Shown here: positions 35,385 to 62,067 of the stretch, piece by piece | Numbering within the stretch: the stretch's first letter is position 1 | Layout: each line of letters starts with the position of its first letter | Assembly (NCBI RefSeq): GCF_036507355.1 | Contig: NZ_AP027877.1 | Length of the DNA: 64,000 bases | Reading direction: 5' to 3' (one strand) | Source: Escherichia coli | GTDB lineage: Bacteria; Pseudomonadota; Gammaproteobacteria; Enterobacterales; Enterobacteriaceae | Translations under genes and position numbers: made by a program | The notes under the pieces: model-generated | Told to the model about the DNA's origin: nothing | The model's database searches: none | Seen by the model: only the letters and a program-made list of their open reading frames with translations

Positions 35385-36077
35385 CTAGTGATAACCACGC
35401 GCGGTCATAAAATCCGTAATCGCTTTTTCTGCATCAACCAACACCTGTTCCAGTGGCTGATTGGCATCGATATCAACCAGTTGTGCACCACCAAAGGTTA
35501 ACTGTGGCGTTATGGCAATCTTCCTCGCCAGCGATTCCCGTTTATGGTCGGGTTTACGCATGCAGGCAACTTCAAGGTCAACATTGAGTTTGATGACCAG
35601 ATCAGGCTTATGGCTCGCCATCCAGTGAAACGCTTTACGTTCCTGGCTTGCCAGCCATGAGACAAAACGACCACCTTCAACGTTAGGTGGGAACACCGTA
35701 CCATCGTAAGCGCCAGGAATTTGGTCCTGAGGATAACGGTCGGTTAGAACAATTAACCCGCGACGACGACAGGCAAGCATATGACGAAAGCGCAGTAAGC
35801 GACGGGCGACAAACGCTGTAATTACCAGCGCCGGAACTGGTCCAGGCAATTTTTTTGCTGTTTTCACCTGATTTCGTTCAATTGTTTTATGTAAGGATTT
35901 TCCCATCAACGGTAATTTTGTCACTGCACGACCGACATTTCCGGCCTGTTTTCCTAAATGAACTCTTTCGGCAGCACCATATTTTTCGACAACGGTAATG
36001 AGATGTTCACACACCGTTGACTTGCCTGAACCATCGCTACCAATAACGGCAATTAATGGAGGTGTTATTGACTGCAT
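35385..36077 (-). CDS. yghT: P-loop kinase-like protein YghT (thymidylate/nucleoside-kinase-like fold)
   Basis: 230-aa ORF; Walker [13 protein letters not shown]-type motif LTDRYPQ, C-terminal RKPDH motif shared with YghS/YghR. Confidence 0.85.
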
Positions 36078-36155: not shown

Positions 36156-36183
36156 AATGTCACAATTAACCATTGTCACAATA
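36156..36183. promoter_or_regulatory. Candidate operator in the yghT/yghS divergent promoter region
   Basis: AATGTCACAATT and the perfect 11-bp palindrome ATTGT-C-ACAAT lie 16 bp apart in an AT-rich 173-bp divergent intergenic region. Confidence 0.3.
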
Positions 36184-36250
36184 AGGTTGAACGGATATTC
36201 TGAGCACGGACCACGTAATATTCAATACATTATTTGCTGCCGGGTTTTTC

Positions 36251-36964
36251 GTGAATCAACGTAATATGTCAATAATTAATTCCACGCCAGTGCGTGTTAT
36301 TGCCATTGTAGGATGTGATGGTTCAGGTAAATCGACCCTCACGGCAAGCCTGGTAAATGAACTGGCAGCAAGAATACCAGCAGAACACATTTATCTCGGG
36401 CAATCGTCCGGGCGAATTGGCGAATGGATTTCACAGCTCCCTGTTATTGGCGCACCTTTTGGGCGTTATCTGCGAAGTAAAGCGGCACATGTGCACGAAA
36501 AGCCCTCAACACCGCCTGGCAATATTACTGCGCTGGTTATCTATCTGCTTTCCTGCTGGCGGGCGTACAAGTTTCGCAAAATGTTGTGTAGAAGCCAGCA
36601 AGGCCATCTGCTCATCACCGACCGCTACCCGCAGGTTGAAGTGCCGGGTTTTCGCTTTGATGGCCCGCAATTGGCAAAAACCACGGGCGGTAACGGTTGG
36701 ATAAAAATGTTAAGGCAGCGCGAGTTGAAGCTGTACCAATGGATGGCGTCTTATTTACCCGTATTGTTGATTCGTCTTGGCATTGATGAACAAACCGCGT
36801 TTGCGCGTAAACCTGACCACCAACTGGCAGCGTTACAGGAAAAAATCGCCGTTACGCCGCAACTGACATTCAATGGCGCAAAGATCCTTGAACTGGATGG
36901 TCGGCAACCAGCCGATGAAATTCTGCAAGCGTCACTACGCGCAATTCACGCCGCGCTTTCCTGA
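36251..36964 (+). CDS. yghS: P-loop kinase-like protein YghS (paralog of YghT/YghR)
   Basis: 237-aa ORF; Walker A GCDGSGKST, ITDRYPQ, ARKPDH motifs. Confidence 0.85.
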   Translation: MNQRNMSIINSTPVRVIAIVGCDGSGKSTLTASLVNELAARIPAEHIYLGQSSGRIGEWISQLPVIGAPFGRYLRSKAAHVHEKPSTPPGNITALVIYLLSCWRAYKFRKMLCRSQQGHLLITDRYPQVEVPGFRFDGPQLAKTTGGNGWIKMLRQRELKLYQWMASYLPVLLIRLGIDEQTAFARKPDHQLAALQEKIAVTPQLTFNGAKILELDGRQPADEILQASLRAIHAALS

Positions 36965-36995: not shown

Positions 36996-37754
36996 ATGGA
37001 TGCACTACAAACACAAACTGTTATTAGTACAACCGCGCCGCAGCCCAACTACATTCCGGGGCTGATTGCGGTGGTCGGGTGTGATGGCACCGGTAAATCC
37101 ACACTGACCACCGACCTGGTGAAATCGCTGCAACAACACTGGCAAACCGAGCGGCGCTATCTGGGGCTGCTCTCCGGCGAAGACGGCGACAAAATCAAAC
37201 GATTGCCGTTGGTTGGCGTCTGGCTGGAACGGCGACTGGCGGCCAAATCCTCGAAAACCCAAAGCATGAAAACCAAATCTCCGGCGCTATGGGCGGCGGT
37301 GATTATGTACTGCTTCTCGCTGCGAAGAATGGCGAATCTACGCAAGGTTCAGCGACTGGCGCAAAGTGGCGTTCTGGTGGTCAGCGATCGCTTCCCGCAG
37401 GCTGAAATTTCGGGCTTTTATTATGATGGACCGGGGATTGGCGTCGAACGTGCGACCGGGAAAATAAGCATGTTTCTGGCGCAGCGCGAACGGCGTTTAT
37501 ACCAACAAATGGCGCAATATCGCCCGGAATTAATTATTCGCTTGGGCATTGATATTGAGACTGCCATCTCCCGCAAGCCTGACCATGACTATGCCGAGCT
37601 GCAGGACAAAATCGGTGTTATGTCGACGATTGGCTATAACGGCACAAAAATTCTTGAGATTGATTCCAGAGCGCCCTACAGCGAAGTGCTGGAACAGGCA
37701 CAGAAGGCGGTTTCTCTGGTTGCCATCGTTTCTGACCGCCGAAGTTTAACTTAA
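36996..37754 (+). CDS. yghR: P-loop kinase-like protein YghR (paralog of YghT/YghS)
   Basis: 252-aa ORF; Walker A GCDGTGKST, VSDRFPQ, SRKPDH motifs. Confidence 0.85.
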   Translation: MDALQTQTVISTTAPQPNYIPGLIAVVGCDGTGKSTLTTDLVKSLQQHWQTERRYLGLLSGEDGDKIKRLPLVGVWLERRLAAKSSKTQSMKTKSPALWAAVIMYCFSLRRMANLRKVQRLAQSGVLVVSDRFPQAEISGFYYDGPGIGVERATGKISMFLAQRERRLYQQMAQYRPELIIRLGIDIETAISRKPDHDYAELQDKIGVMSTIGYNGTKILEIDSRAPYSEVLEQAQKAVSLVAIVSDRRSLT

Positions 37755-37799: not shown

Positions 37800-39149
37800 T
37801 TGGCGGGTTTTAACATCAAACATTGGTTTGCAGATGGCGCGTTTCGCACCATTATTCGCAATAGCGCCTGGTTAGGCTCCAGTAATGTCGTGAGCGCCTT
37901 GCTGGGTCTGTTGGCGCTCTCGTGTGCCGGTAAAGGGATGACGCCCGCCATGTTTGGCGTACTGGTGATTGTGCAATCGTACGCCAAGTCGATCAGCGAT
38001 TTTATTAAGTTTCAGACATGGCAGCTGGTGGTTCAGTACGGAACACCAGCATTAACCAACAATAATCCGCAGCAATTTCGCAATGTCGTCTCATTTTCCT
38101 TCTCGCTGGATATCGTCAGCGGCGCGGTGGCGATTGTCGGCGGCATTGCCTTACTGCCATTCCTTTCCCATTCATTAGGTCTGGATGACCAAAGCTTTTG
38201 GCTGGCGGCGCTGTATTGCACGTTCATTCCTTCAATGGCTTCCTCCACGCCGACCGGCATTCTGCGTGCGGTAGATCGCTTTGATTTGATTGCTGTACAG
38301 CAGGCGACGAAACCTTTTCTGCGCGCAGCGGGGAGCGTCGCAGCCTGGTATTTTGACTTTGGTTTTGCGGGTTTTGTTATTGCCTGGTACGTGTCGAATC
38401 TGGTTGGCGGCACCATGTACTGGTGGTTTGCCGCGCACGAATTACGCCGCAGAAATATCCATAACGCCTTCAAATTGAATCTGTTTGAGTCTGCCCGACA
38501 CATTAAAGGCGCGTGGAGTTTTGTCTGGTCAACCAACATTGCCCACTCCATCTGGTCGGCGCGTAACTCGTGCAGCACAGTGTTGGTGGGGATCGTGTTA
38601 GGACCCGCTGCCGCCGGGTTATTTAAAATCGCCATGACATTCTTCGATGCCGCCGGAACGCCAGCGGGTTTGCTGGGTAAAAGTTTTTACCCAGAGGTGA
38701 TGCGTTTAGATCCGCGCACCACCAGACCGTGGTTGTTAGGCGTGAAGTCCGGTTTACTGGCGGGCGGAATCGGTATTCTGGTGGCGCTCGCGGTGTTGAT
38801 CGTCGGCAAGCCGCTCATTTCGCTGGTGTTTGGCGTTAAGTATCTCGAAGCGTATGACCTGATTCAGGTGATGCTGGGCGCAATTGTGATCTCGATGCTG
38901 GGTTTCCCGCAGGAGTCATTGCTATTGATGGCGGGAAAACAGCGCGCTTTTCTCGTGGCGCAAACCATCGCCTCAATCGGCTACATCGTATTGCTGTTCA
39001 TGTTCTGTCATCTGTTTGGTGTGCTGGGAGCAGCGTTTGCTTACTTCGGTGGGCAATGTCTGGACGTGGCGCTCTCGTTAATTCCAACCTTAAAGGCATT
39101 TTTTCAGCGCCATTCCTTGCTTTATAACGCAGCCGGAGAGAAATCCTGA
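37800..39149 (+). CDS. yghQ: Polysaccharide-biosynthesis/MOP-flippase-family inner membrane protein YghQ (apparently full length)
   Basis: 449-codon ORF from a TTG at 37800 (true start may be an internal ATG); highly hydrophobic multi-TM protein; I recall K-12 YghQ as shorter. Confidence 0.8.
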   Translation: MAGFNIKHWFADGAFRTIIRNSAWLGSSNVVSALLGLLALSCAGKGMTPAMFGVLVIVQSYAKSISDFIKFQTWQLVVQYGTPALTNNNPQQFRNVVSFSFSLDIVSGAVAIVGGIALLPFLSHSLGLDDQSFWLAALYCTFIPSMASSTPTGILRAVDRFDLIAVQQATKPFLRAAGSVAAWYFDFGFAGFVIAWYVSNLVGGTMYWWFAAHELRRRNIHNAFKLNLFESARHIKGAWSFVWSTNIAHSIWSARNSCSTVLVGIVLGPAAAGLFKIAMTFFDAAGTPAGLLGKSFYPEVMRLDPRTTRPWLLGVKSGLLAGGIGILVALAVLIVGKPLISLVFGVKYLEAYDLIQVMLGAIVISMLGFPQESLLLMAGKQRAFLVAQTIASIGYIVLLFMFCHLFGVLGAAFAYFGGQCLDVALSLIPTLKAFFQRHSLLYNAAGEKS

Positions 39150-39973
39150 TGATGAGAAAATATTTCCCGCTTGAGGCGAGCGAGCATCTATTTGTTGCGA
39201 TTGAGGAAGATGATGTTGTTGATGCCCAGGTCAGTTTGCCGCCGACTATCGCACTAAGTTGTACCACCGAAATCATCCATGATAATTACGCGTTATGCCT
39301 GCAATTCTGGCTCAATGGCGTTGATCGTCAGGAATTACTTCGTTTAATTCGCAAACAAGCCAAAGGCGATGAGCTGACGACAGACGAGCGTAAACAGTTT
39401 AAATACATGCGAGCGCGCTACAAGCATCTACGTTTTGCACAACGGCTGTATTTAAAAAAGCATCAGGCCAGATTTTTATTCGGCAAAACGACCGTTTTTC
39501 TGGGACGTTTTCAGGACGGATTTCGTAACGGTAAGAAAAATATTGTGTCGTATTACGGCAACCTGTTACGAATTTATTTAAGCTCTCCGGTCTGGTCGTT
39601 GGTGAACTATTCATTACGCCATAGCCAGTTAGAAAGCGTAAGCGGTTTTATTGCCTATCGGCAAAAGCAAATGCATACCCTGAAAGAGATTATTGCCAAA
39701 CCGCGACTAACCGGCAGGGAATTTCATGATGTGCGAAAAATCATCAGCCAGCAGGTTTCTTATTACGACACCTTAAGATCGCTTGATCCTGAAAATAAAG
39801 AGGCGTTACAGATTTCCCGTTTCCTCGCCGCCATTAATGGCCTGATGGGGGATCAACACGACGACATGGTGGCGGATGATATGGAAAACCGCCAGTCGTA
39901 TGATGCACCGGTGGCGCTGGATAGCGATATTCGCCAGCGCTTAGAGCTGCTGATTTCGCGTTTTCCGCTATAA
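39149..39973 (+). CDS. Hypothetical basic protein (274 aa), no family recognised
   Basis: ATG overlaps the yghQ stop (TGATG), implying translational coupling; ORF MMRKYFPLEASEHLFVAIEEDDVV...; within a same-strand gene array. Confidence 0.65.
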   Translation: MMRKYFPLEASEHLFVAIEEDDVVDAQVSLPPTIALSCTTEIIHDNYALCLQFWLNGVDRQELLRLIRKQAKGDELTTDERKQFKYMRARYKHLRFAQRLYLKKHQARFLFGKTTVFLGRFQDGFRNGKKNIVSYYGNLLRIYLSSPVWSLVNYSLRHSQLESVSGFIAYRQKQMHTLKEIIAKPRLTGREFHDVRKIISQQVSYYDTLRSLDPENKEALQISRFLAAINGLMGDQHDDMVADDMENRQSYDAPVALDSDIRQRLELLISRFPL

Positions 39974-39981
39974 CCGGAGCA

Positions 39982-40545
39982 ATGATGTCATCTCGTTTGA
40001 TTATTGCGCTGATTATCATGCTCTTAGCCCCGGGTGTGCAGGCACACAATTTCGTCACTGGCAAAACGGTTACCCCTGTTTATATTCAGGAAGGCGGCGA
40101 GCTGCTTCTGAATAGCGACGACGAAATTCACTACCAAAAGTGGAACAGCACACAATTGGCGGGAAAAGTCCGAATTATCCAGTATATCGCCGGGCGTAAG
40201 TCGGCGAAGAAAAAGAACTCACTGTTAATTAAAGCGGTTGAAGCGGCAAACTTTCCGCAGGATCGTTTTCAGCCCACCACCATTGTGAACACCGATGATG
40301 CCATCTTTGGTACTGGCTATTTTGTTGTTGGCAAAATCGAAAAAAATAAACGCCACTATCCGTGGGCGCAATTCGTTATTGACGGCAATGGACAGGGACG
40401 CGTTGCCTGGCGCTTGCCGGAGCAGAGTTCAACCATTCTGGTGCTGAATAAAGCCGGGCAAATTCAGTGGGCAAAGGACGGCAGCCTGACGCCGGAAGAG
40501 GTAGATCATGTTATTGCGCTGGCGCAGAAACTGATCAATGAATAA
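39982..40545 (+). CDS. YtfJ-family periplasmic protein (paralog of E. coli YtfJ)
   Basis: 187-aa ORF with signal peptide; HNFVTGKTVTPVYIQEGGELLLNSDDEIHYQKWNSTQLAGKVRIIQYIAGR closely parallels my recollection of the YtfJ sequence. Confidence 0.7.
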   Translation: MMSSRLIIALIIMLLAPGVQAHNFVTGKTVTPVYIQEGGELLLNSDDEIHYQKWNSTQLAGKVRIIQYIAGRKSAKKKNSLLIKAVEAANFPQDRFQPTTIVNTDDAIFGTGYFVVGKIEKNKRHYPWAQFVIDGNGQGRVAWRLPEQSSTILVLNKAGQIQWAKDGSLTPEEVDHVIALAQKLINE

Positions 40546-40575
40546 AAAATTCAAAGGATTGAGGGCGTTAGTGAG

Positions 40576-41646
40576 ATGAAGCTGGTTGAACACTACATCA
40601 TGCGTGGTACGCGCCGTCTGGTGCTGATTATCGTCGGTTTTCTGATCTTTATTTTCGCCAGCTACTCCGCACAGCGTTATCTGACCGAAGCGGCAAATGG
40701 GACATTAGCTCTTGATGTTGTGCTGGATATCGTTTTCTACAAAGTGCTGATTGCACTGGAGATGTTGTTACCTGTTGGTCTGTATGTGTCAGTTGGCGTG
40801 ACGCTAGGGCAGATGTATACCGACTCGGAAATTACCGCTATCTCTGCGGCGGGGGGCAGTCCGGGACGCTTGTACAAAGCCGTTCTTTATCTGGCGATAC
40901 CGCTAAGTATTTTTGTCACCCTTCTGTCGATGTATGGTCGTCCGTGGGCTTATGCGCAGATTTATCAACTGGAGCAGCAGTCGCAGTCGGAGCTGGATGT
41001 TCGCCAGTTGCGGGCAAAGAAATTTAACACTAACGATAACGGACGAATGATCCTTTCGCAGACGGTTGATCAGGATAATAATCGCCTGACTGACGCGCTG
41101 ATTTATACTTCTACTGCCAATCGAACCCGCATTTTCCGCGCCCGTTCGGTTGATGTGGTTGACCCATCACCCGAGAAACCGACCGTTATGTTGCACAACG
41201 GCACTGCCTATCTTCTCGATCATCAGGGGCGTGACGACAACGAACAGATCTACCGTAATCTGCAATTACATCTGAATCCGCTGGATCAAAGCCCTAACGT
41301 CAAACGCAAAGCGAAATCGGTCACGGAGCTGGCGCGCTCCGTCTTTCCAGCCGATCATGCCGAACTGCAATGGCGACAAAGCCGTGGCCTGACCGCATTG
41401 TTGATGGCGCTGCTGGCCATTTCATTAAGTCGGGTAAAACCGCGGCAAGGGCGATTTTCAACATTATTGCCACTGACGTTGCTGTTTATTGCCATTTTTT
41501 ATGGCGGCGACGTCTGCCGTACGCTGGTGGCTAACGGCGCGATTCCCCTCATTCCTGGTTTGTGGTTAGTACCCGGACTCATGCTAATGGGCCTGCTGAT
41601 GCTGGTCGCACGCGACTTCTCTTTGCTGCAGAAATTTTCCCGATGA
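40576..41646 (+). CDS. LptF/LptG-family (YjgP/YjgQ) permease paralog 1
   Basis: 356-aa ORF; N-terminal TM segments; region LEMLLPVGLYVSVGVTLGQMYTDSEITAISAAG parallels the LptF motif [29 protein letters not shown] recalled from memory. Confidence 0.8.
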   Translation: MKLVEHYIMRGTRRLVLIIVGFLIFIFASYSAQRYLTEAANGTLALDVVLDIVFYKVLIALEMLLPVGLYVSVGVTLGQMYTDSEITAISAAGGSPGRLYKAVLYLAIPLSIFVTLLSMYGRPWAYAQIYQLEQQSQSELDVRQLRAKKFNTNDNGRMILSQTVDQDNNRLTDALIYTSTANRTRIFRARSVDVVDPSPEKPTVMLHNGTAYLLDHQGRDDNEQIYRNLQLHLNPLDQSPNVKRKAKSVTELARSVFPADHAELQWRQSRGLTALLMALLAISLSRVKPRQGRFSTLLPLTLLFIAIFYGGDVCRTLVANGAIPLIPGLWLVPGLMLMGLLMLVARDFSLLQKFSR

Positions 41647-42722
41647 ATGTTTTCAGTCGCTATTTAATCCGTCATCTCTTTCTCGGTTTTGCCGCCGCCG
41701 CAGGGCTATTGCTGCCGCTTTTTACCACCTTCAACCTGATTAACGAACTGGATGATGTCAGCCCGGGCGGTTATCGCTGGACTCAGGCGGTGCTGGTGGT
41801 GCTAATGACCTTACCGCGCACACTTGTCGAACTTTCGCCATTTATCGCCTTATTGGGAGGGATTGTCGGCCTGGGGCAGCTATCGAAAAACAGTGAGCTT
41901 ACCGCCATTCGCAGCACGGGGTTTTCTATCTTCCGTATTGCACTGGTGGCGCTGGTTGCCGGGATATTGTGGACTGTTTCGTTAGGCGCGATAGATGAGC
42001 GGGTAGCGTCGCCATTGCAGCAACAGGCGCTGCAAATCAAATCGACCGCCACCGCGTTGGGGGAGGACGATGACATTACCGGCAATATGCTGTGGGCCAG
42101 GCGCGGCAATGAATTTGTGACGGTGAAATCGCTGAATGAGCAGGGCCAGCCTGTGGGCGTGGAGATTTTTCATTATCGTGACGATCTCTCGCTCGAATCC
42201 TACATTTATGCACGCAGTGCCACCATTGAAGACGACAAAACGTGGATCCTGCATGGTGTGAATCATAAAAAATGGCTGAATGGCAAAGAAACGCTGGAAA
42301 CATTAGATAATCTTGCCTGGCAATCGGCCTTCACCAGTATGGATCTTGAAGAGCTATCGATGCCGGGGAATACTTTTTCTGTCCGTCAGCTTAATCATTA
42401 CATCCATTATTTGCAGGAAACCGGGCAACCCAGCAGCGAATACCGCCTTGCACTGTGGGAAAAACTGGGGCAACCCATCCTGACCCTGGCGATGATTTTG
42501 CTGGCTGTGCCGTTTACCTTTAGCGCCCCGCGCTCGCCAGGGATGGGTAGCCGTCTCGCTGTAGGCGTCATCGTTGGCTTACTCACCTGGATCAGCTATC
42601 AAATCATGGTCAATTTGGGATTGCTATTTGCGTTAAGCGCACCTGTTACCGCGCTCGGTTTACCGATAGCGTTTGTGCTGGTGGCGTTGAGCCTGGTGTA
42701 TTGGTATGACAGACAACATTAA
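41643..42722 (+). CDS. LptF/LptG-family (YjgP/YjgQ) permease paralog 2
   Basis: ORF 41562-42722 trimmed to ATG 41643 (MNVFSRYLIRHLFLGF..., 359 aa) overlapping the upstream stop (ATGA); same architecture as paralog 1. Confidence 0.8.
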   Translation: MNVFSRYLIRHLFLGFAAAAGLLLPLFTTFNLINELDDVSPGGYRWTQAVLVVLMTLPRTLVELSPFIALLGGIVGLGQLSKNSELTAIRSTGFSIFRIALVALVAGILWTVSLGAIDERVASPLQQQALQIKSTATALGEDDDITGNMLWARRGNEFVTVKSLNEQGQPVGVEIFHYRDDLSLESYIYARSATIEDDKTWILHGVNHKKWLNGKETLETLDNLAWQSAFTSMDLEELSMPGNTFSVRQLNHYIHYLQETGQPSSEYRLALWEKLGQPILTLAMILLAVPFTFSAPRSPGMGSRLAVGVIVGLLTWISYQIMVNLGLLFALSAPVTALGLPIAFVLVALSLVYWYDRQH

Positions 42723-42723
42723 A

Positions 42724-42750
42724 CCCGCCGTGGCGCAACACCACGGCGGG
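42724..42750. terminator. Hairpin between convergent operons (putative bidirectional terminator)
   Basis: CCCGCCGTGG-CGCAACA-CCACGGCGGG perfect 10-bp stem in the 34-bp gap between the two convergent stops. Confidence 0.5.
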
Positions 42751-42756
42751 CTCACA

Positions 42757-43929
42757 TTACTGCTTCAGAGTAGCAAATGCCTGAATGATGGCATCGATTT
42801 GCTCACGACTGTGGGCAGCGTTTACGCTACAGCGCAGCAGCGTGATGCCTGCAGGCGCGGCAGGTGGCAGGATAAGATTCACATAAACGCCCAGCGAAAT
42901 AAGCTCGCGCCAGATGCGTAAACCTTCCTCTTTCGAACCGATTATTACCGGCACTACCGGACTAATATGTGAACTTAACTCATAACTCAGCTTTTGCAGC
43001 CCGTCATACAGATGGTTGGCATTATCCATCAGTTTTTGCCGCAACTCTGGTTGAGTGGCAATGGTTCTTAACGACGAGCGCACGGTTGCAATGCAGGAAG
43101 GAGAAGGGGAGGCGGTAAAAATATACGGACGACTGCCGTAGCGCAGCACTTCCATCGCTTCCGAACCCACGGCAAAACCACCAATAGAAGCCAGGCTTTT
43201 ACTGAAGGTGCCAACGATAATATCCACATCATCTTCAACGCCAACGGCTTCAACCAGCCCGCGCCCCGTTGCGCCTAACACGCCAAACGAGTGAGCTTCA
43301 TCGACAATTAAATATCCGCCGAGACGACGTTTGATATCAACAATTTCCGCCAGCGGCGCAACGTCACCGAGCATACTGTAGATGCCCTCAACGATGATAA
43401 TCGCCTCTTTCGCCCGTTCACCGAGGCGAACCATGCGCCGTTCCAGATCTTTAGCATCGTTATGGCGGAAACGAATAATTTCCGCGCCACCGAGAGAACA
43501 GGCGTCATAAATACTGGCGTGGCTGTCAGCATCCAGTAACACCACGGCGTTATGGTCGGCAAGTGCGCTGATGACGCCTAAATTAGCGGTATAACCGGTT
43601 GAAAAAACGATAGCGGTAGGGCGATTGAAAAACTCAGCAATCTCTTTCTCTAACGCCAGATGCGGCGCATAACTGCCGTTTGCCATACGAGAACCGGTGG
43701 TGCCGGTGCCTTGGGCCGCTAACGCTGCCTGACCTTCGGCGATGGCATCATGATTGAAGGTTAATCCGAGATAATTATTGGTCCCGGCCAGAATCACTTT
43801 TTTATTGCCGATCCGGCCTTCGGTGGCGGAATACACTTCATCAATACAGGTGCCAAACGGTGTTAACCCGTTGTCACTAAATTGCAGACGCTCGCCAGCA
43901 AGGCGCGCATATTTATCGTATAGCCCCAT
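42757..43929 (-). CDS. PLP-dependent alpha-oxoamine synthase, serine-palmitoyltransferase-like
   Basis: 390-aa ORF; DEAHSFGVLG and GTFSKSLASIGGF (PLP-lysine motif of the AONS/SPT/KBL family); ATG overlaps the stop of the upstream ACP gene. Confidence 0.85.
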   Translation of the reverse strand: MGLYDKYARLAGERLQFSDNGLTPFGTCIDEVYSATEGRIGNKKVILAGTNNYLGLTFNHDAIAEGQAALAAQGTGTTGSRMANGSYAPHLALEKEIAEFFNRPTAIVFSTGYTANLGVISALADHNAVVLLDADSHASIYDACSLGGAEIIRFRHNDAKDLERRMVRLGERAKEAIIIVEGIYSMLGDVAPLAEIVDIKRRLGGYLIVDEAHSFGVLGATGRGLVEAVGVEDDVDIIVGTFSKSLASIGGFAVGSEAMEVLRYGSRPYIFTASPSPSCIATVRSSLRTIATQPELRQKLMDNANHLYDGLQKLSYELSSHISPVVPVIIGSKEEGLRIWRELISLGVYVNLILPPAAPAGITLLRCSVNAAHSREQIDAIIQAFATLKQ

Positions 43930-44177
43930 TATTTATTCTCCAGCCATGGAAGTAGAGTTTCCATTAATTGCGCAGGGGTTTTGACATCCAGCAGAATATT
44001 AATAGGAATGGAAATATCGAATCTGTCTTCCAGCATCATTAAGAGATCCATCACTTTGATCGACTCCAGGCCAAGATCGTTGACGAGATCGCTGTCGGGC
44101 TTAATTTCCACACCGTTTTCGACCAAATCCTGTAAACAGGAAAGGATGTAATCCATTACTATTTCACGATTTACCAT
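43929..44177 (-). CDS. Acyl carrier protein (dedicated, non-AcpP)
   Basis: 82-aa acidic ORF with DLGLESIKVMDL phosphopantetheine-attachment-type serine motif. Confidence 0.8.
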   Translation of the reverse strand: MVNREIVMDYILSCLQDLVENGVEIKPDSDLVNDLGLESIKVMDLLMMLEDRFDISIPINILLDVKTPAQLMETLLPWLENK

Positions 44178-44208
44178 AGAAACGTTAACACACCTTTAAA
44201 CAAGACAA

Positions 44209-45123
44209 TCAAAATAGCCCGTTGCGTAATGCGTGTTCCAGGCTAATCCCGGGAAACCAATTAATATCTTCAGAAATACGGTTATTACTTGCCGACCAGT
44301 CGGCGTGGGTTAATTCACGAATTTTCGAGCGGGTCAGCATAGGTTCTTTACCTGCCAGGCGACTCAACGCGGTACTGATATCCGCAAGGCAGGTGAGTAC
44401 CGGCAGAGGAATGCCAACCATTCGCACGGAACCACAACGGGCGTCGGCGGCAAGTTGCTGTACGCGTTGCCAGTCATAGCCGCCAGCGACGCCATCGCAT
44501 AATTCATAGGTTTGCGTCTGTACAGTTTCGGCGCTTAACCACTGACCCACTGCTTGCGCAAAATCGGTGACATGCAGGAAAGAGAGCTGTGTATCTGGTG
44601 CACCAAGTCGTGGCAGCAGGCCGCGCAGCATCCAGTCAAACAGCGGTTTTAACTCTTTATCGCCGGGACCATACACGGCTGTCGGGCGAAAAACGCCCAG
44701 CGTAATTTCGTCAGCCATTGCCGTCAGCCGTTGTTCGGCGACGTGTTTGGAATTTGCGTACCAGGAGAGCTCGGGATGGCGCGCCGCCAGCGAAGAGATA
44801 AACAGAAAACGTTGGCAAAAGCCGCTCTCTTTTGCTGCTTGCATCAGGCGCAGGCTGCCGTCAACGTTACAGTGGGTAAAAATCTCTTCTTTGTGTCCGC
44901 GCACTTGCCCGGCGCAATGGACCACCGCGCTGGCTCCGGCAACCAGTTCGCTAAGCGAATGTGTATCTTCCAGCGAACCGCGCACCCAAGTAAGATTATC
45001 ATTGACGTGAGCGCGGGCAGTACGCGTCAATGCGCGAACGTGAAAGCCGCGGGCGAGCAGGTTATCGATAATATATTTACCGATAAAACCGGTAGCGCCC
45101 GTCACCGCGACAGTTTGATTCAT
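44209..45123 (-). CDS. NAD(P)-dependent epimerase/dehydratase-family (extended SDR) reductase
   Basis: 304-aa ORF; N-terminal VTGATGFIGKYI Rossmann motif; YANSK (YxxxK) catalytic motif; start overlaps the upstream stop (ATGA). Confidence 0.8.
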   Translation of the reverse strand: MNQTVAVTGATGFIGKYIIDNLLARGFHVRALTRTARAHVNDNLTWVRGSLEDTHSLSELVAGASAVVHCAGQVRGHKEEIFTHCNVDGSLRLMQAAKESGFCQRFLFISSLAARHPELSWYANSKHVAEQRLTAMADEITLGVFRPTAVYGPGDKELKPLFDWMLRGLLPRLGAPDTQLSFLHVTDFAQAVGQWLSAETVQTQTYELCDGVAGGYDWQRVQQLAADARCGSVRMVGIPLPVLTCLADISTALSRLAGKEPMLTRSKIRELTHADWSASNNRISEDINWFPGISLEHALRNGLF

Positions 45124-46841
45124 GCCAGGGATTCCTGCACATGAAGGCTTGCAGCATAAGCCTTCTGATAACGTTTTTTCGCTTCCGCACGGGCAGGCTT
45201 GCCGGAGGACGTTCGGGGAATGCTGTGGGGCGGCAACAGATCGATAGCCGCGGTCACGCCAAATTCGCTTTGGATCCGTGCTGCCAGCGCGTGGATAAGC
45301 TGCCCGCGACGTTCTTCATCGCTGATCCGACACTGGATCTGCAAAATGATTTTTTCCTGGACGGTAACAAAAGCAATCGCATCGCCAGAATGAATTTCCG
45401 GTTCCTGTTCCGCTATATATTCAATATCCTGCGGCCAGATATTACGGCCACGAATAATAATCAGATCTTTAATGCGTCCGGTGACATACAGATAACCATC
45501 CAGCAGATAACCGAGGTCGCCAGTGTCTAACCAGCCCGTCGCGGCAATCTCGTCTTGCGAAGCCTGGTCGCCAAAGTAACCGCTCATCAGACTGGGACCG
45601 GAGATGCAAATATGGCCTACCACACGTTCCGCGACCGGCATACCTGCTTGATTGCGGATTTCAATACCATGTTCCGGCAACGCTTTGCCGCAGTTGACGA
45701 AAGTCGATACGGCGCGTGTCTCTGCACCCGGCGCGACGGCTTTACCCTGATATTCGAGGATGTCGCGATCCACTTCGTTAACTACAACCCCGGAGGCTTC
45801 ATCAGAGAAGCTGACAGCCAGCGCATTTTCTGCCAGGCCGTAGCACGGCATGAAAGTTTTATCGTCAAAGTTAACCTGACGGAAACATTCAGCGAATTGA
45901 TGGAGTTGTTCTGCGGAGATGGGTTCTGCACCAATACCAGCGACGCGCCAGCAGGAAAGATCCAGTTCAGCGAGATCTTTTTCATTCACGCGGCGCTGGC
46001 ACAATTCATAGCCAAACGGCGGCGCAACGGAAACGGTGCCGCGATTTTTACTGATCAATTTAAGCCATTGCAGAGGACGCATGGCAAAATCCTGAGTGCG
46101 CAAATAATCTACTGAAAGTTGCGTGGCGACGGGGGTCAGGAGAAAGCCGACCAGTCCCATATCATGGTAGAAAGGCAGCCAGGAGACGCAGCGGTCGCCA
46201 GGGCGTAATTTAATGCCGTCGTGGCTTATAGCACGTAGATTAGCCATCACTTCGCGATGGGTGATAATGACGCCACGGGGAAAACGGGTGCTGCCGGAGG
46301 TGTACTGGAGGTAGGCGATATCGTTCGGAACTGGACGCTGGAGCGCAACATCGGCTTCCGGTAATGCCTTAAACCAGGCGTGGCTTAAAACATGTAATTC
46401 GGGGTTGTCATGCGTCGCGGCATTGACCAGTGGCAACCACTCATCACCAGTGATAATGGCTGCGGGCTGGCAACTTGTCAGTAAACCCTGCAATTTGGCG
46501 CTCCAGGAATCCCGCTGACCAACGCCCATTGGAATCGCCAACGGGACGGCGACTAAGCCGGCATACTGGCAGGCAAAAAAAGCCTCTACGAACCCGCTAC
46601 TTGTTTCGGCAATCAGTGCCACGCGATCGCCTTTTTTCAGGTTCAGCGATAACAACCGCTTCGCACCAGCTTCGGCACGCGCTTTTAACGTCTGATATTC
46701 CAGTTGATCTTCAAGTTGGCAACGTCTGTCATAAAAATTCATTCCAGCGCTACTCAGAGCGGCGTAGTCCAAAGCATCAACCAGCGTTGGAAAATCGGCA
46801 TAGCGTATAGGTAGGGAATGCGTAAAGATTTTATTAGACAT
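45120..46841 (-). CDS. Fatty acyl-AMP ligase / acyl-ACP synthetase (adenylate-forming enzyme)
   Basis: ORF 45120-46850 (GTG) trimmed to ATG 46839-46841 (MSNKIFTHSL...); AMP-binding core motifs YTSGSTRFPRGV and TGDLGY...GRIKDLIIIRGRNI. Confidence 0.85.
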   Translation of the reverse strand: MSNKIFTHSLPIRYADFPTLVDALDYAALSSAGMNFYDRRCQLEDQLEYQTLKARAEAGAKRLLSLNLKKGDRVALIAETSSGFVEAFFACQYAGLVAVPLAIPMGVGQRDSWSAKLQGLLTSCQPAAIITGDEWLPLVNAATHDNPELHVLSHAWFKALPEADVALQRPVPNDIAYLQYTSGSTRFPRGVIITHREVMANLRAISHDGIKLRPGDRCVSWLPFYHDMGLVGFLLTPVATQLSVDYLRTQDFAMRPLQWLKLISKNRGTVSVAPPFGYELCQRRVNEKDLAELDLSCWRVAGIGAEPISAEQLHQFAECFRQVNFDDKTFMPCYGLAENALAVSFSDEASGVVVNEVDRDILEYQGKAVAPGAETRAVSTFVNCGKALPEHGIEIRNQAGMPVAERVVGHICISGPSLMSGYFGDQASQDEIAATGWLDTGDLGYLLDGYLYVTGRIKDLIIIRGRNIWPQDIEYIAEQEPEIHSGDAIAFVTVQEKIILQIQCRISDEERRGQLIHALAARIQSEFGVTAAIDLLPPHSIPRTSSGKPARAEAKKRYQKAYAASLHVQESLA

Positions 46842-46850
46842 ATACACCAC

Positions 46851-47211
46851 GAAAAAATTGGATATCCAAAATAAAATGACAATAATGCGGTGGATTATAT
46901 AGGCATAAAAGATAAATGAGATAGTATTTTCATCGGTGTGAAAATGAACATTGATTTAAATAATGAGTTTAAGTTTTTTGTTTTTATTGTGAATGATATT
47001 TAATTTATGAATATATTAAGAAGAAGCCTTGTCCGGTCGCCTTAAATCGACAAAAGGCATTGTGGCGCTTCTGCGTAGTCGCTGACCCTATCGTAATCAT
47101 TAATAAATACTATTTATTCGTCGTTTGTATTCATTGGGTTGATTATTAAGATGCCGTTCGTTGCTGTTGCAACCTGTTTTTCACCGTTAATTATTTGTTA
47201 TCCACAGAACT
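46851..47211. promoter_or_regulatory. AT-rich divergent promoter region between the FAAL operon and yghO
   Basis: 361-bp noncoding stretch, visibly AT-rich with A/T tracts (e.g. TTTAAATAATGAGTTTAAGTTTTTTGTTTTTATTGTGAATGATATTTAATTTATGAATATATTAAG), flanked by divergent starts. Confidence 0.4.
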
Positions 47212-48354
47212 ATGGAATGCGATCTGCTGATGATCAAAATTGAAAAAGTAATTAATAAAAATGACCTTAAGGCATTTATTGCTTTTCCGTCATCACTTTA
47301 TCCCGATGATCCAAACTGGATACCCCCTTTATTCATTGAACGCAGCGAGCATTTGTCTGCGAAGAATCCGGGGACGGACCATATCATCTGGCAGGCGTGG
47401 GTGGCAAAAAAAGCGGGGCAGATAGTTGGGCGTATTACCGCGCAAATAGATACCTTACACCGCGAGTGTTACGGCGAAGATACCGGTCATTTCGGCATGA
47501 TTGACGCCATTGATGATCCGCAGGTTTTTGCCGCGTTGTTTGGCGCAGCGGAAGCGTGGTTGAAGTCACAAGGTGCAAGTAAGATCAGCGGGCCTTTCAG
47601 CCTGAATATCAATCAGGAAAGCGGATTACTGATTGAAGGTTTTGACACACCACCCTGTGCGATGATGCCACACGGCAAACCGTGGTATGCCGCGCATATT
47701 GAACAACTGGGTTATCACAAAGGCATTGATTTACTGGCGTGGTGGATGCAGCGAACCGATCTCACTTTCTCTCCGGCGCTAAAAAAACTGATGGTTCAGG
47801 TGCGCAAAAAGGTGACCATTCGCTGCATCAATCGCCAGCGGTTTGCCGAAGAGATGCAGATCCTGCGTGAGATTTTCAACTCTGGCTGGCAGCACAACTG
47901 GGGATTTGTGCCGTTTACCGAACATGAATTCGCGACCATGGGCGACCAACTTAAATATCTGGTGCCGGACGATATGATCTACATCGCTGAGATTGATTCT
48001 GCACCTTGCGCGTTTATTGTCGGCTTGCCAAACATCAACGAGGCGATTGCCGATCTGAACGGATCGCTCTTTCCCTTCGGCTGGGCAAAATTGCTGTGGC
48101 GTTTGAAAGTCAGCGGTGTGCGAACTGCGCGAGTACCGCTGATGGGCGTGCGCGACGAGTATCAGTTCAGCCGCATCGGCCCGGTGATTGCGCTGTTATT
48201 GATTGAAGCCTTACGCGATCCGTTTGCCCGCCGGAAGATCGATGCGCTGGAGATGTCATGGATCCTCGAAACCAATACAGGCATGAATAACATGCTGGAA
48301 CGCATTGGGGCGGAGCCGTACAAGCGTTACCGATTGTATGAAAAGCAGATTTAA
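47212..48354 (+). CDS. yghO: YghO-family protein, putative GNAT-like N-acyltransferase, intact
   Basis: 380-aa ORF MECDLLMIKIEKVINKNDLKAFIAFPSSLYPDDPNWIPPLF...; recognised as YghO family, which I recall as a disrupted pseudogene in K-12; acyltransferase assignment is from family knowledge, not from motifs I can verify. Confidence 0.7.
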   Translation: MECDLLMIKIEKVINKNDLKAFIAFPSSLYPDDPNWIPPLFIERSEHLSAKNPGTDHIIWQAWVAKKAGQIVGRITAQIDTLHRECYGEDTGHFGMIDAIDDPQVFAALFGAAEAWLKSQGASKISGPFSLNINQESGLLIEGFDTPPCAMMPHGKPWYAAHIEQLGYHKGIDLLAWWMQRTDLTFSPALKKLMVQVRKKVTIRCINRQRFAEEMQILREIFNSGWQHNWGFVPFTEHEFATMGDQLKYLVPDDMIYIAEIDSAPCAFIVGLPNINEAIADLNGSLFPFGWAKLLWRLKVSGVRTARVPLMGVRDEYQFSRIGPVIALLLIEALRDPFARRKIDALEMSWILETNTGMNNMLERIGAEPYKRYRLYEKQI

Positions 48355-58455: not shown

Positions 58456-59324
58456 GGTACGCCTTTATCCGTGACAACACCTGTTGCTGGCCTGTTCGCC
58501 TGCTCTGTCGGGTGCTGGATGTTCATCCCAGTGGTTTTTACGCCTGGCTTCAGCAGCCGCATTCACAACGCCATCAGGCAGACCTGAGGCTGACAGGGCA
58601 GATTAAACAGTTCTGGCTGGAATCGGGATGCGTCTATGGTTATCGCAAAATCCATCTGGATCTGCGGGACAGCGGGCAACAGTGCGGAGTGAACAGAGTC
58701 TGGCGACTGATGAAACGTGTCGGGATAAAGGCTCAGGTCGGATACCGGAGCCCGCGGGCACGTAAAGGCGAGGCCAGTATCGTGTCGCCCAACAGGCTCC
58801 AGCGACAGTTCAATCCGGATGCTCCGGATAAGCGTTGGGTAACGGACATAACCTACATCAGGACCCACGAAGGCTGGCTGTATCTTGCCGTGGTTGTTGA
58901 TCTGTTCTCACGCAAAATTATCGGCTGGTCCATGCAATCCCGGATGACAAAGGACATTGTCCTGAACGCACTGCTGATGGCTGTATGGCGCCGTAATCCC
59001 CAAAAACAGGTGCTGGTTCATTCGGATCAGGGCAGTCAGTACACAAGCCATGAGTGGCAGTCGTTCCTGAAATCACACGGCCTGGAGGGCAGCATGAGCC
59101 GTCGCGGTAACTGCCATGATAATGCGGTTGCAGAAAGCTTTTTCCAGTTGTTGAAACGCGAACGGATAAAGAAAAAGATCTACGGAACGCGGGAAGAAGC
59201 CCGCAGCGATATTTTTGATTACATCGAAATGTTTTATAACAGTAAGCGTCGGCATGGTTCCAGCGATCAGATGTCACCGACAGAATATGAAAACCAGTAT
59301 TATCAACGGCTCGGAAGTGTCTAG
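58416..59324 (+). CDS. IS3-family transposase OrfB (DDE integrase core), expressed as OrfAB fusion by -1 frameshift
   Basis: -1 frame is open from the slippery site; contains WVTDITYIRTHEGWLYLAVVVDLFSRKIIGWSM, HSDQGSQYTS and CHDNAVAESFF DDE-core motifs; the first in-frame ATG is at 58512. Confidence 0.85.
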   Translation, partial: KKSRGVLRKAVRLRYAFIRDNTCCWPVRLLCRVLDVHPSGFYAWLQQPHSQRHQADLRLTGQIKQFWLESGCVYGYRKIHLDLRDSGQQCGVNRVWRLMKRVGIKAQVGYRSPRARKGEASIVSPNRLQRQFNPDAPDKRWVTDITYIRTHEGWLYLAVVVDLFSRKIIGWSMQSRMTKDIVLNALLMAVWRRNPQKQVLVHSDQGSQYTSHEWQSFLKSHGLEGSMSRRGNCHDNAVAESFFQLLKRERIKKKIYGTREEARSDIFDYIEMFYNSKRRHGSSDQMSPTEYENQYYQRLGSV

Positions 59325-59339
59325 ATTACCCGTGGCGAT

Positions 59340-59555: not shown

Positions 59556-59758
59556 TTTGTATCCTGTTGTATGATTCTTAAGTACTGTTATTGGCCCGAT
59601 TTTATCGTAATTTCATATTGATGACAGGCTTTGTATGTCATACGTTGCACTGAGAGTTCGTTTGCCCGGTTGTGTAGGCAGCGCTCTTTCAGCCAGGTCA
59701 GTAGAAACGTTGCGCTGACGATAAATACTGAAGCCCCAATACCATCGGGGCTGAACGT

Positions 59759-62027: not shown

Positions 62028-62067
62028 GTTAATGTGATTTAATCATCACTAATAATATGTTGTGATT

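What the first reader, a model, noticed from the sequence alone, without database searches (positions are those of the whole stretch)
39149..39973. Uncharacterised 274-aa basic protein translationally coupled to the yghQ flippase-like gene
The start codon overlaps the yghQ stop (TGATG) and the ORF sits between the flippase-like gene and the YtfJ/LptFG-like genes. No recognisable motifs; Arg/Lys-rich. Position suggests a role in the same membrane lipid handling pathway.
Basis: seen in the sequence. Interest (0 to 1): 0.4.

Follow-up and report, generated by a model that had tools for sequence, protein, structure and literature searches.

The report
Divergent CHAD-like protein in sphingolipid operon
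The unnamed 274-residue E. coli protein is a real, strongly conserved, highly diverged member of the polyphosphate-binding CHAD fold, always encoded with thymidylate-kinase-like kinases and usually coupled to the YghQ flippase, which points to unexplored phosphate chemistry on a sphingolipid-type membrane lipid that lab strain K-12 has lost.

Summary
The ORF at 39149-39973 (274 aa, pI 9.2) starts inside the yghQ stop codon (TGATG).

**It is a real gene**
- It is present in 4165 of 5426 complete E. coli genomes.
- dN/dS is about 0.075.
- Homologs occur in Enterobacterales, Rhodanobacteraceae, Sphingomonadales and Acetobacteraceae.

**"No recognisable motifs" is wrong**
- 26 of 83 family members hit Pfam CHAD individually.
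- The invariant residues lie in CHAD's duplicated basic motif.

**Conserved partners**
- The constant partners are not LptFG or YtfJ, which accompany it almost only in Enterobacterales.
- They are thymidylate-kinase-like P-loop kinases (YghR/S/T; 74 of 80 loci, plus distant metagenomic loci) and the YghQ MOP flippase (71 of 80 loci).
- The stop/start overlap with yghQ is conserved across three orders.
- The kinase-plus-CHAD layout mirrors the archaeal PPK3 polyphosphate-kinase operon.

**Best reading**
It is a non-catalytic phosphate/polyanion-binding partner of the kinases and flippase. In E. coli it sits in the sphingolipid (spt) locus that K-12 lost through an IS5-linked deletion. Ligand, substrate and product are inferred, not shown.

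The parts
39149..39973 (+). ORF274: a divergent CHAD-fold protein (274 aa, soluble, basic, all-helical). This is the subject of the finding.
39147..39151 (+). TGATG junction where the yghQ stop codon overlaps the ORF274 start codon by one base.
   Evidence: Tight junctions (4-nt overlap, 1-nt overlap or no gap) occur in 50 of 66 adjacent pairs across Enterobacterales, Rhodanobacteraceae and Sphingomonadales.
39401..39433 (+). Codons for K85-R95 (FKYMRARYKHLRF), the basic stripe of the first four-helix bundle. R88 is invariant; K92 and R95 are nearly invariant.
   Evidence: Conservation. HMMER aligns this stretch to the H-x2-R-x3-RR-x-R motif of the Ricinus CHAD domain 6qv5. Motifs of this type were shown to bind polyphosphate in CtCHAD and SsCHAD (PMC6537752).
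39725..39739 (+). Codons for H193-K197 (FHDVRK), the matching motif in the second bundle. H193 and R196 are invariant.
   Evidence: A half-versus-half hhalign puts K85/R88 in register with H193/R196.
39836..39862 (+). Codons for N230-D238 (NGLMGDQHD), the nearly invariant 'MG..HD' signature. Its first-bundle counterpart is G119..Q122-D123.
   Evidence: The pattern [IL]NGLMGxxHD retrieved 122 relatives from the genome collection.
37800..39149 (+). yghQ, full length (449 aa): a MOP/Wzx-type flippase-like membrane protein immediately upstream and coupled to ORF274.
   Evidence: Pfam PF01943 and PF13440, NCBIfam 'MOP flippase family'. Present within about 1 kb upstream on the same strand in 71 of 80 loci. 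Truncated to 355 aa in K-12.
36996..37754 (+). yghR: thymidylate-kinase-like P-loop kinase.
36251..36964 (+). yghS: thymidylate-kinase-like P-loop kinase, a paralog of yghR, and first gene of the + strand operon.
   Evidence: A promoter-like site lies at 36173-36201.
35385..36077 (-). yghT: the third thymidylate-kinase-like paralog, divergently transcribed. It is the type that stays most distinct from the others across taxa.
39982..40545 (+). YtfJ-family periplasmic protein, 8 nt downstream of ORF274.
   Evidence: PF09695 at 1.5e-59 and TIGR01626. Found with the module only in Enterobacterales (37 loci).
40576..42722 (+). LptF-like (40576-41646) and LptG-like (41643-42722) permeases, the last genes of the operon.
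   Evidence: PF03739 at 8e-54 and 1e-68. Caulobacter LptF2/G2 are required for sphingolipid transport (bioRxiv 10.64898/2026.04.12.717747).
42720..42754 (-). 16-bp GC-rich hairpin between the convergent lptG-like gene and spt; probably a bidirectional terminator.
42757..46850 (-). Convergent ceramide-core operon aasR-cerR-acpR-spt: acyl-AMP ligase, NAD-dependent reductase, acyl carrier protein and serine palmitoyltransferase.
   Evidence: PGAP annotation. Pfam. spt is present in 4134 of 5426 E. coli genomes against 4165 for ORF274.
47212..48354 (+). yghO (380 aa), the last gene of the island. It is a candidate N-acyltransferase, but its function was not tested here.
   Evidence: No Pfam hit. 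It was included in a screen for E. coli lysine acetyltransferases (PMC6199490).

Best explanation
ORF274 is a highly diverged, stand-alone CHAD-fold protein: two four-helix bundles carrying a duplicated stripe of invariant Arg/Lys/His residues. I propose it is a cytoplasmic, non-catalytic binder of a phosphate-rich polyanion, either polyphosphate/oligophosphate or a multiply phosphorylated lipid head group. It would work as an accessory subunit of the thymidylate-kinase-like kinases YghR/S/T. It is made in fixed proportion with the YghQ MOP flippase through a conserved stop/start overlap.

In E. coli and other Enterobacterales the module sits inside the sphingolipid locus. The only candidate head-group enzymes there are the three kinases. 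The most likely job is therefore to hold or present the phosphorylated ceramide head group, or a polyphosphate donor, to the kinases and then to YghQ for flipping. The LptF/G-like permeases would then extract the lipid for the outer membrane.

Shown here: the fold, homology to CHAD, purifying selection, the conserved gene partnership, and the conserved coupling to yghQ.

Inferred: the ligand, the lack of catalysis, the lipid substrate, and the order of steps.
For: Fold:
- The AlphaFold2 model has pLDDT 97.2.

Sequence:
- 26 of 83 relatives hit Pfam CHAD individually, best 1.7e-8.
- Four longer relatives exceed the Pfam gathering score.
- The family profile's best match in the whole PDB is CHAD 6qv5, E 0.002, aligned on both basic motifs.
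- Three of the four invariant residues (R88, H193, R196) lie in those motifs.
- Motifs of this type bind polyphosphate in CtCHAD and SsCHAD (PMC6537752).

Partnership:
- YghRST-like kinases are present in 74 of 80 genome loci. The six without are loci cut short by a contig or storage end, or with the kinases expected beyond the available sequence.
- Kinases are also present in distant metagenomic loci (hmmsearch E 3.5e-97 and 5.8e-106).
- Some relatives are fused to APH-type kinase domains.
- Unbiased clustering of neighbouring genes finds only ORF274, YghQ and the kinases in all five taxon groups.

Precedent:
- In Sulfolobus, two dTMP-kinase paralogs plus a CHAD protein in one operon make up the PPK3 polyphosphate kinase system (PMC12995831).
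- In Streptomyces, ppk is co-transcribed with the CHAD gene pptA (PMC8003754).

Coupling to YghQ.

Sphingolipid link:
- The gene is in-locus with spt, acpR, cerR and aasR in 40-42 of 80 loci.
- ORF274 and spt have nearly the same genome counts in E. coli, and both are missing from K-12.
- The taxa carrying the family include the classic sphingolipid producers.
- The Caulobacter MOP flippase CC_1166 lies in the sphingolipid locus and shows cofitness with lptF2.
Against: - The E. coli sequence itself has no Pfam or NCBIfam hit.
- Foldseek against PDB gave no significant E-value; the best sensible hit was 6qv5 at probability 0.90 and TM 0.48.
- hhalign against E. coli YgiF's CHAD domain found nothing.
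- None of the usual polyphosphate genes (ppk1, ppk2, ppx, CYTH, sixA, pst) is a conserved neighbour.
- In Sphingomonadales and Acetobacteraceae the module is not within 10 kb of spt.
- Caulobacter's well-studied sphingolipid locus has no described CHAD-like or thymidylate-kinase-like gene.
- The second-bundle motif is partly degenerate in E. coli (S200-Q201 where the family consensus has S-R).
- The nearly invariant His/Asp pairs would also fit a metal or catalytic site.
- No phosphorylated sphingolipid, and no function for yghQ or yghRST, turned up in the literature searches.
Confidence: 0.55

Rival explanations
1. The module is a free-polyphosphate system of the PPK3 type. YghR/S/T form a hetero-oligomeric polyphosphate kinase or polyphosphate-dependent nucleotide kinase, and ORF274 is its 'phosin', tethering polyphosphate. 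The lipid genes next to it are neighbours only, or merely consume the ATP or polyphosphate.
Against: All three kinases keep the catalytic DR(Y/F) arginine, so no regulatory-type subunit is evident. No ppx, sixA, pst or nudix gene is a conserved neighbour. By sequence the kinase profile matches ordinary thymidylate kinases (7.8e-8) much better than 2plr (0.0037, P-loop region only). The overlap with a membrane flippase gene is conserved in three orders. The kinases carry a hydrophobic helix insert that suggests a membrane or lipid substrate. E. coli already has PPK1 and PPX (background knowledge).
Confidence: 0.15
2. ORF274 is itself an enzyme. It would be a metal-dependent phosphotransferase or phosphohydrolase that uses the nearly invariant His/Asp residues (H105, D123, H193, H237-D238) to add, trim or transfer a phosphate-containing head group.
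For: His and Asp are among the most conserved positions. CHAD was first proposed to chelate metals or accept phosphate, and Zn was seen in the Ricinus CHAD crystal. [quoted passage not shown] Apart from the kinases, the E. coli locus has no obvious head-group transferase.
Confidence: 0.12
3. ORF274 is a dedicated cytoplasmic partner of the YghQ flippase only, acting as an assembly factor, gate or regulator. Its CHAD ancestry would be irrelevant to any ligand.
For: The stop/start overlap with yghQ is conserved. YghQ is directly upstream in 71 of 80 loci.
Against: The kinases are a more constant partner than YghQ: they are present in loci that lack YghQ, and kinase fusions exist. The residues under strongest constraint are the CHAD ligand-binding positions.
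Confidence: 0.1
4. The ORF is a chance or decaying reading frame with no function.
For: It is annotated only as 'hypothetical protein' and has no direct Pfam or NCBIfam hit. It is absent from K-12.
Against: dN/dS is about 0.075. Length is constant and residues are invariant across four orders. The structure prediction is highly confident. Its absence from K-12 is explained by an IS5-linked deletion of the whole island.
Confidence: 0.01

Closest known systems
CHAD domain proteins ('phosins'; Pfam PF05235), for example Chlorobium CtCHAD (3e0s), Ricinus RcCHAD (6qv5) and Streptomyces PptA (6rn5)
   Different: The sequence is too diverged for the Pfam model to detect. The neighbours are not PPK1, PPK2, PPX or CYTH; they are thymidylate-kinase-like kinases, a MOP flippase and, in several lineages, ceramide synthesis and LptFG-like genes. 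Polyphosphate binding has not been tested.
Archaeal/bacterial PPK3 polyphosphate kinase operon (Sulfolobus saci_2017-2021; PMC12995831)
   Same: Paralogous dTMP-kinase-fold proteins are encoded together with a CHAD protein. YghR is structurally as close to 2plr, the cluster containing the solved cPPK3 homolog 5h70, as it is to true thymidylate kinases.
   Different: There are one to three kinases per locus (three in E. coli), and all keep the DRX arginine, whereas the regulatory PPK3 subunit has lost it. There are no ppx or sixA neighbours. A flippase and lipid genes are present instead. Placement in the PPK3 clade was not tested.
Caulobacter crescentus sphingolipid locus (CC_1152-CC_1168: spt, acpR, cerR, aasR, bcerS, cpgABC, lptF2/G2, flippase CC_1166)
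   Same: The two loci share ceramide-core genes, LptF/G paralogs and a PF01943-type flippase. Both appear geared to making and exporting an anionic sphingolipid.
   Different: Caulobacter's head-group enzymes are an LCB5-type ceramide kinase, a Tam41-like protein, a PgsA-like protein and nucleotidyltransferases. None is CHAD-like or thymidylate-kinase-like. The E. coli locus has none of those and has YghR/S/T plus ORF274 instead.
E. coli YgiF (CYTH triphosphatase fused to a CHAD domain; 5a60/5a61)
   Different: YgiF has the 'short' CHAD type without the central pore. It is fused to an enzyme domain. It shows no detectable profile similarity to the ORF274 family and sits in an unrelated genomic context.

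Membership tests
CHAD domain (PF05235) | Two four-helix bundles related by pseudo-twofold symmetry, about 200-300 aa, all-helical | tested here: met
CHAD domain (PF05235) | Detection by the Pfam CHAD profile at or above its gathering score | tested here: inconclusive
   The E. coli protein gets no CHAD hit even at E<=1. 26 of 83 family members hit at E<=0.01, best 1.7e-8. P0183, P0248, P0261 and P0265 score 30.7-40.9 bits against a cut-off of 25.6. The family profile's best match in the whole PDB is CHAD 6qv5 at E 0.002. Homology is therefore supported through intermediates, not directly.
CHAD domain (PF05235) | Conserved basic/His motif (H-x2-R-x3-R type) in each bundle, lining the ligand-binding surface | tested here: met
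   K85-x2-R88-x3-K92-x2-R95 and H193-x2-R196-K197 align to the two RcCHAD motifs. R88, H193 and R196 are invariant. The equivalent residues were mutated in CtCHAD and SsCHAD and reduced or abolished polyphosphate binding. The second motif is partly degenerate in E. coli (Q201 where the consensus has R).
CHAD domain (PF05235) | Specific binding of inorganic polyphosphate | not testable with these tools
   This needs purified protein and a binding assay.
CHAD domain (PF05235) | Genomic association with polyphosphate enzymes (PPK, PPX or a CYTH/TTM fusion) | tested here: not met
   No ppk, ppx or CYTH gene appears among the conserved neighbours in 80 loci. The conserved neighbours are thymidylate-kinase-like kinases, which resemble PPK3 in architecture only.
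PPK3 polyphosphate kinase system | Two or more dTMP-kinase-fold paralogs encoded together with a CHAD protein | tested here: met
   YghR, YghS and YghT have the thymidylate kinase fold and motifs. Kinases are next to ORF274 homologs in 74 of 80 loci and in distant loci; copy number is three in Enterobacterales, mostly two in Sphingomonadales, and only one detected in some loci.
PPK3 polyphosphate kinase system | One catalytic subunit plus one regulatory subunit that lacks the DRX arginine | tested here: not met
   D131 and R132 of the DR(Y/F)PQ motif and the P-loop GxDGxGK(S/T) are invariant across all 18 aligned R-, S- and T-type kinases. The PPK3 criterion comes from PMC12995831.
PPK3 polyphosphate kinase system | Membership of the PPK3 clade of the dTMP-kinase superfamily; operon with ppx, sixA or pst | not tested
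   No PPK3 sequences were available for a tree. As a crude indicator, the kinase profile matches 2plr at E 0.0037 (P-loop only) against 7.8e-8 for a canonical thymidylate kinase. No ppx, sixA or pst neighbours were found.
Bacterial sphingolipid synthesis/transport locus | Encoded in one locus with spt, acpR, cerR, aasR and LptF/G paralogs | tested here: met
   This holds in the window and in 40-42 of 80 loci, covering Enterobacterales, Rhodanobacteraceae and one MAG. It does not hold within 10 kb in Sphingomonadales or Acetobacteraceae. ORF274 (4165 genomes) and spt (4134 genomes) have nearly the same counts in E. coli.
Bacterial sphingolipid synthesis/transport locus | Loss of the gene changes sphingolipid composition or localisation | not testable with these tools
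   This needs genetics and lipidomics in a strain with the intact locus.

The most novel reading that the evidence does not exclude
YghR/S/T plus ORF274 form a membrane-directed, PPK3-like machine that builds a pyrophosphate, oligophosphate or polyphosphate chain directly on a ceramide (or other lipid) anchor. The CHAD-like protein would hold the growing phosphate chain. YghQ, a relative of flippases that handle lipid-diphosphate-linked cargo, would flip the product, and LptB with the LptF/G paralogs would export it. Most natural E. coli strains, but not K-12, and many Enterobacterales, sphingomonads and acetic-acid bacteria would then carry a previously unseen polyphosphorylated sphingolipid in the outer membrane.
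Probability: 0.12. Interest if true: 0.9.

Novelty: new variant of a known kind. Interest (0 to 1): 0.6.

Why it matters
Bacterial sphingolipid biology is a young field, and E. coli's own locus has no known product. This result gives the unnamed gene a fold and a concrete, testable role. It also defines a conserved three-part module of thymidylate-kinase-like kinases, a CHAD-like protein and a MOP flippase that is absent from the Caulobacter model. That implies a second, different route to an anionic head group.

It offers the first functional handle on yghQ, yghR, yghS and yghT, four long-standing E. coli genes of unknown function. It also explains why they went unstudied: K-12 carries only a stump of the operon.

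It extends CHAD proteins, so far tied only to free polyphosphate granules and polyphosphate enzymes, into a membrane-lipid setting. Because the LptF/G paralogs are thought to share LptB with LPS export, the pathway may matter for outer-membrane barrier function and polymyxin susceptibility in clinical E. coli.

Tried and rejected
1. Direct Pfam and NCBIfam scans of ORF274 found nothing useful. The only hit, MRP-L51 at E 0.16, is noise.

2. I tested whether ORF274 is the equivalent of Caulobacter CpgC (CCNA_01219/CC_1161), which one paper described as having no conserved domains. This is rejected. The later analysis shows CpgC is Tam41-like, and none of CC_1152, 1153, 1158, 1159, 1160 or 1161 is CHAD-like.

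5. hhalign of the family against the E. coli YgiF CHAD domain gave probability 0.3%, so it is uninformative.

6. The search for related loci with the full 83-sequence alignment failed because no stretch was conserved enough. A closer 19-sequence alignment worked.

7. I first read the distant metagenomic loci as lacking the module. That was wrong: their unannotated neighbours are YghRST-type kinases.

8. Literature searches for yghQ, yghR/S/T and yghO found no functional study. 'CHAD domain' together with 'sphingolipid' found no paper.

9. Rfam found no RNA family in 35-48 kb. Promoter and terminator counts match shuffled sequence apart from the lptG/spt hairpin.

10. The small reverse-strand ORFs inside ORF274 (38998-39276, 39399-39614 and 39834-40064) were treated as by-products of the coding frame.

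11. The source name 'GspM' on P0032 is rejected: that protein is a chimera.
Full report
**1. The observation**

The window is E. coli chromosome. The gene order is hyb, gss, pitB, yghT, yghS, yghR, yghQ, then an island that K-12 lacks, then yghO, glcC and the glc operon.

The ORF at 39149-39973 (+) encodes 274 aa. Its ATG shares a base with the yghQ TGA stop, giving TGATG. NCBI's PGAP pipeline calls the same ORF 'hypothetical protein'. The protein is moderately basic: 24 R and 16 K against 19 D and 15 E, pI 9.18. It has no hydrophobic segment or signal peptide, so it should be a soluble cytoplasmic protein.

It is clearly a real gene:
- It is present in 4165 of 5426 complete E. coli genomes.
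- There are 343 word-indexed homologs of constant length across Enterobacterales.
- There are 209 cluster representatives among 1.84 billion proteins.
- dN/dS within Escherichia is 0.073-0.083.

**2. What the protein is**

Direct Pfam and NCBIfam scans are empty. Three independent lines nevertheless identify a CHAD fold (conserved histidine alpha-helical domain).

(a) *Longer relatives.* Longer, distant relatives found by phmmer score above Pfam's CHAD gathering threshold: P0183 40.9, P0248 36.8, P0265 32.7 and P0261 30.7 bits against a cut-off of 25.6. In addition, 26 of 83 full-length family members hit CHAD individually, best 1.7e-8.

(b) *PDB profile search.* A profile of the family finds the Ricinus CHAD domain 6qv5 as its best match in the entire PDB (E 0.002). 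The alignment falls on both basic motifs.

Foldseek was not significant, although 6qv5 was its only sensible full-length hit.

The family's invariant residues are R88, D123, H193 and R196. The nearly invariant ones are K92, R95, H105, G119, K197, N230, M233, G234, H237, D238 and Y251. These form two copies of one pattern: F-K85-x2-R88-x3-K92-x2-R95 followed by G119-x2-Q-D123, and F-H193-x2-R196-K197 followed by G234-x2-H237-D238. The two halves align in that register (hhalign P 0.0013, weak).

In CtCHAD and SsCHAD the H-x2-R-x3-R residues contact polyphosphate, and mutating them lowers or abolishes binding (PMC6537752). ORF274 is therefore a divergent member of the CHAD fold that has kept the ligand-contacting positions. 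Whether it binds polyphosphate is untested.

**3. Who it travels with**

A scan of one genome per species returned 122 relatives, of which 80 loci were analysed. They come from Enterobacterales, Rhodanobacteraceae, Sphingomonadales, Acetobacteraceae and a few beta- and gammaproteobacterial MAGs.

Using tblastn with the E. coli cluster proteins, the neighbours are:

| Neighbour | Loci out of 80 |
|---|---|
| YghR/S/T-like kinases | 74 |
| YghQ | 71 (typically about 1 kb upstream, same strand) |
| Spt, AcpR, CerR, AasR | 40-42 |
| YtfJ | 41 |
| LptF-like / LptG-like | 38 / 40 |

The six loci without kinases are cut short by a contig or storage end, or have the kinases expected beyond the available sequence.

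An unbiased all-against-all clustering of neighbouring ORFs gives the same answer. Only ORF274, YghQ and the kinases occur in all five taxon groups. YtfJ occurs only in Enterobacterales, and LptFG almost only there.

Distant metagenomic members (25-32% identity) that I first thought were isolated are in fact next to YghRST-type kinases (hmmsearch E 3.5e-97 and 5.8e-106). Some relatives have two tandem copies of the domain (P0123), and others are fused to an APH/choline-kinase-type phosphotransferase domain (P0248, P0265). The most constant partner is therefore a kinase.

The junction with yghQ is also conserved. Of 66 same-strand adjacent pairs, 36 overlap by 4 nt (ATGA/GTGA), 8 overlap by 1 nt and 6 abut with no gap. 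This argues for co-translation in fixed proportion.

In the window the operon reads yghS-yghR-yghQ-ORF274-ytfJ-lptF-lptG, with gaps of at most 45 nt. A promoter-like site lies upstream of yghS, and a 16-bp hairpin separates the operon from the convergent aasR-cerR-acpR-spt operon. No Rfam family matches in 35-48 kb.

**4. What the kinases are**

Relative to thymidylate kinase they carry an inserted hydrophobic helix followed by an Arg-rich stretch. This hints at a membrane or lipid substrate, which is inference only.

Copy number is three in Enterobacterales and some MAGs, usually two in Sphingomonadales (a distinct T-type plus an R/S-type), and one or two in Acetobacteraceae. ORF calling in the high-GC genomes was crude, so these counts may be low.

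**5. The closest precedent**

So 'thymidylate-kinase-like paralogs plus CHAD' is a known architecture for phosphoanhydride chemistry on a phosphate polymer.

The differences here are these:
- All the kinases keep the catalytic arginine that the regulatory PPK3 subunit has lost.
- There are no ppx, sixA or pst neighbours.
- The sequence match to 2plr is weak (E 0.0037, P-loop only).
- The module is welded to a membrane flippase gene.

**6. The lipid context**

The island encodes serine palmitoyltransferase, its dedicated ACP, an acyl-AMP ligase (putative acyl-ACP synthetase) and the CerR-type reductase. E. coli spt has been used experimentally as a rhodobacterial SPT (PMC9386255). The E. coli UTI89 locus is drawn as a sphingolipid locus beside Caulobacter and Sphingomonas (bioRxiv 10.64898/2026.04.12.717747). 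In Caulobacter, LptF2/G2 are needed for sphingolipid export and bind LptB. A PF01943-type flippase, CC_1166, lies in the Caulobacter locus and shows cofitness with lptF2.

Caulobacter's head-group enzymes are an LCB5-type ceramide kinase, a Tam41-like CpgC, a PgsA-like CpgA and nucleotidyltransferases. E. coli has none of them. The only candidate head-group enzymes in its locus are YghR/S/T, with ORF274 alongside.

In E. coli, ORF274 (4165 genomes) and spt (4134 genomes) have nearly the same counts, while yghR persists in 4624 genomes. K-12 MG1655 has an IS5 between yghO and a yghQ truncated to 355 aa, and has lost ORF274 through aasR. That explains why the gene has no K-12 name and no literature.

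**7. Most likely mechanism**

ORF274 is a non-catalytic CHAD-type binder of a phosphate-rich polyanion. It serves the thymidylate-kinase-like kinases and is produced together with YghQ.

Thymidylate-kinase-type enzymes phosphorylate a phosphate monoester to make a diphosphate (established chemistry). CHAD domains hold linear phosphate chains. MOP flippases typically move lipid-diphosphate-linked cargo (background knowledge). Taken together, the simplest pathway has three steps:
- The kinases phosphorylate the ceramide head group, possibly repeatedly, or draw on polyphosphate as the donor.
- ORF274 holds the anionic head group or the polymer at the membrane surface and passes the lipid to YghQ.
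- After flipping, the LptF/G paralogs extract it.

The fold, the conserved motif, the gene partnerships and the coupling are shown. The ligand, the substrate, the step order and the absence of catalysis are inferred. I put 0.55 on this general role and about 0.12 on the specific idea of a lipid-anchored oligo- or polyphosphate.

**8. Rivals**

- A free-polyphosphate PPK3-like system with ORF274 as its phosin (0.15).
- ORF274 as a metal-dependent enzyme using the conserved His/Asp pairs (0.12).
- A YghQ-only adaptor (0.10).
- A non-functional ORF (0.01).

Evidence for and against each is given in the rival-explanations section.

**9. Novelty and verdict**

The fold is known, and the sphingolipid locus of E. 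coli is already recognised. What I could not find described is the assignment of this gene to CHAD, the definition of the conserved kinase/CHAD-like/flippase module, and its parallel with PPK3. It is a new variant of a known kind, in a new context, with a clear experimental path.

Noticed in passing
K-12 MG1655 NC_000913.3 3129043-3132408 (locus L087 5044-8409); corresponds to window 38868-47212: In K-12 an IS5 element (insH9) lies between yghO and a 3'-truncated yghQ (355 aa against 449 aa here). ORF274, the ytfJ-like gene, the lptF/G-like genes, spt, acpR, cerR and aasR are all missing. About 460 complete E. coli genomes keep yghR but lack ORF274 and spt.
   Followed up: partly
Protein P0032 (not in the window): A database protein named 'type II secretion system protein GspM' is a chimera: residues 1-222 are ORF274, fused to about 58 residues of a GspM C-terminus. 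It probably comes from a strain-specific deletion joining the two loci. The name should not be transferred to ORF274.
   Followed up: partly
window 42720-42754: A 16-bp GC-rich hairpin sits exactly between the convergent lptG-like gene and spt. It is probably a bidirectional terminator closing both operons.
   Followed up: no
window 36996-37754 (YghR residues 95-109) and 35385-36077 (YghT residues 77-91): Each thymidylate-kinase-like kinase has an inserted hydrophobic helix (for example SPALWAAVIMYCFSL) followed by an Arg-rich stretch that ordinary thymidylate kinases lack. This may be a membrane- or lipid-binding element.
   Followed up: partly
Proteins P0248, P0265 (locus L088 1082-4033) and P0123 (locus L089 1488-3182): Some distant relatives are fusions. 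P0248 and P0265 have an APH/choline-kinase-type domain followed by two tandem ORF274-like domains. P0123 has two tandem domains and is flanked by three YghRST-type kinases and a GT4 glycosyltransferase.
   Followed up: partly
window 39982-40545: The YtfJ-family periplasmic protein, 8 nt downstream of ORF274, accompanies the module only in Enterobacterales (37 loci). Its function is unknown. It could be a periplasmic component of the export route.
   Followed up: no
window 47212-48354: YghO (380 aa), the last gene of the island, has no Pfam hit at all and is annotated inconsistently: 'DNA-binding regulator' in K-12 and 'protein YghO' by PGAP. Its position makes it the candidate ceramide synthase of the locus. 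Homology to Caulobacter bCerS was not tested.
   Followed up: partly
window 58512-63633: Downstream of glcA the window carries an IS3-type transposase (rve), a GmrSD-family type IV restriction endonuclease, a DeoR-HTH/WYL regulator and a DUF3944 protein. The 99.6% identical reference strain has sslE at about this position, so this looks like an inserted defence islet.
   Followed up: partly
window 39149-39973 compared with other E. coli: Only 39 of 4165 E. coli genomes are at least 99% identical to the window over this gene. Most are 95-99% identical and 525 are 90-95% identical, so the window seems to come from a less commonly sequenced lineage.
   Followed up: no
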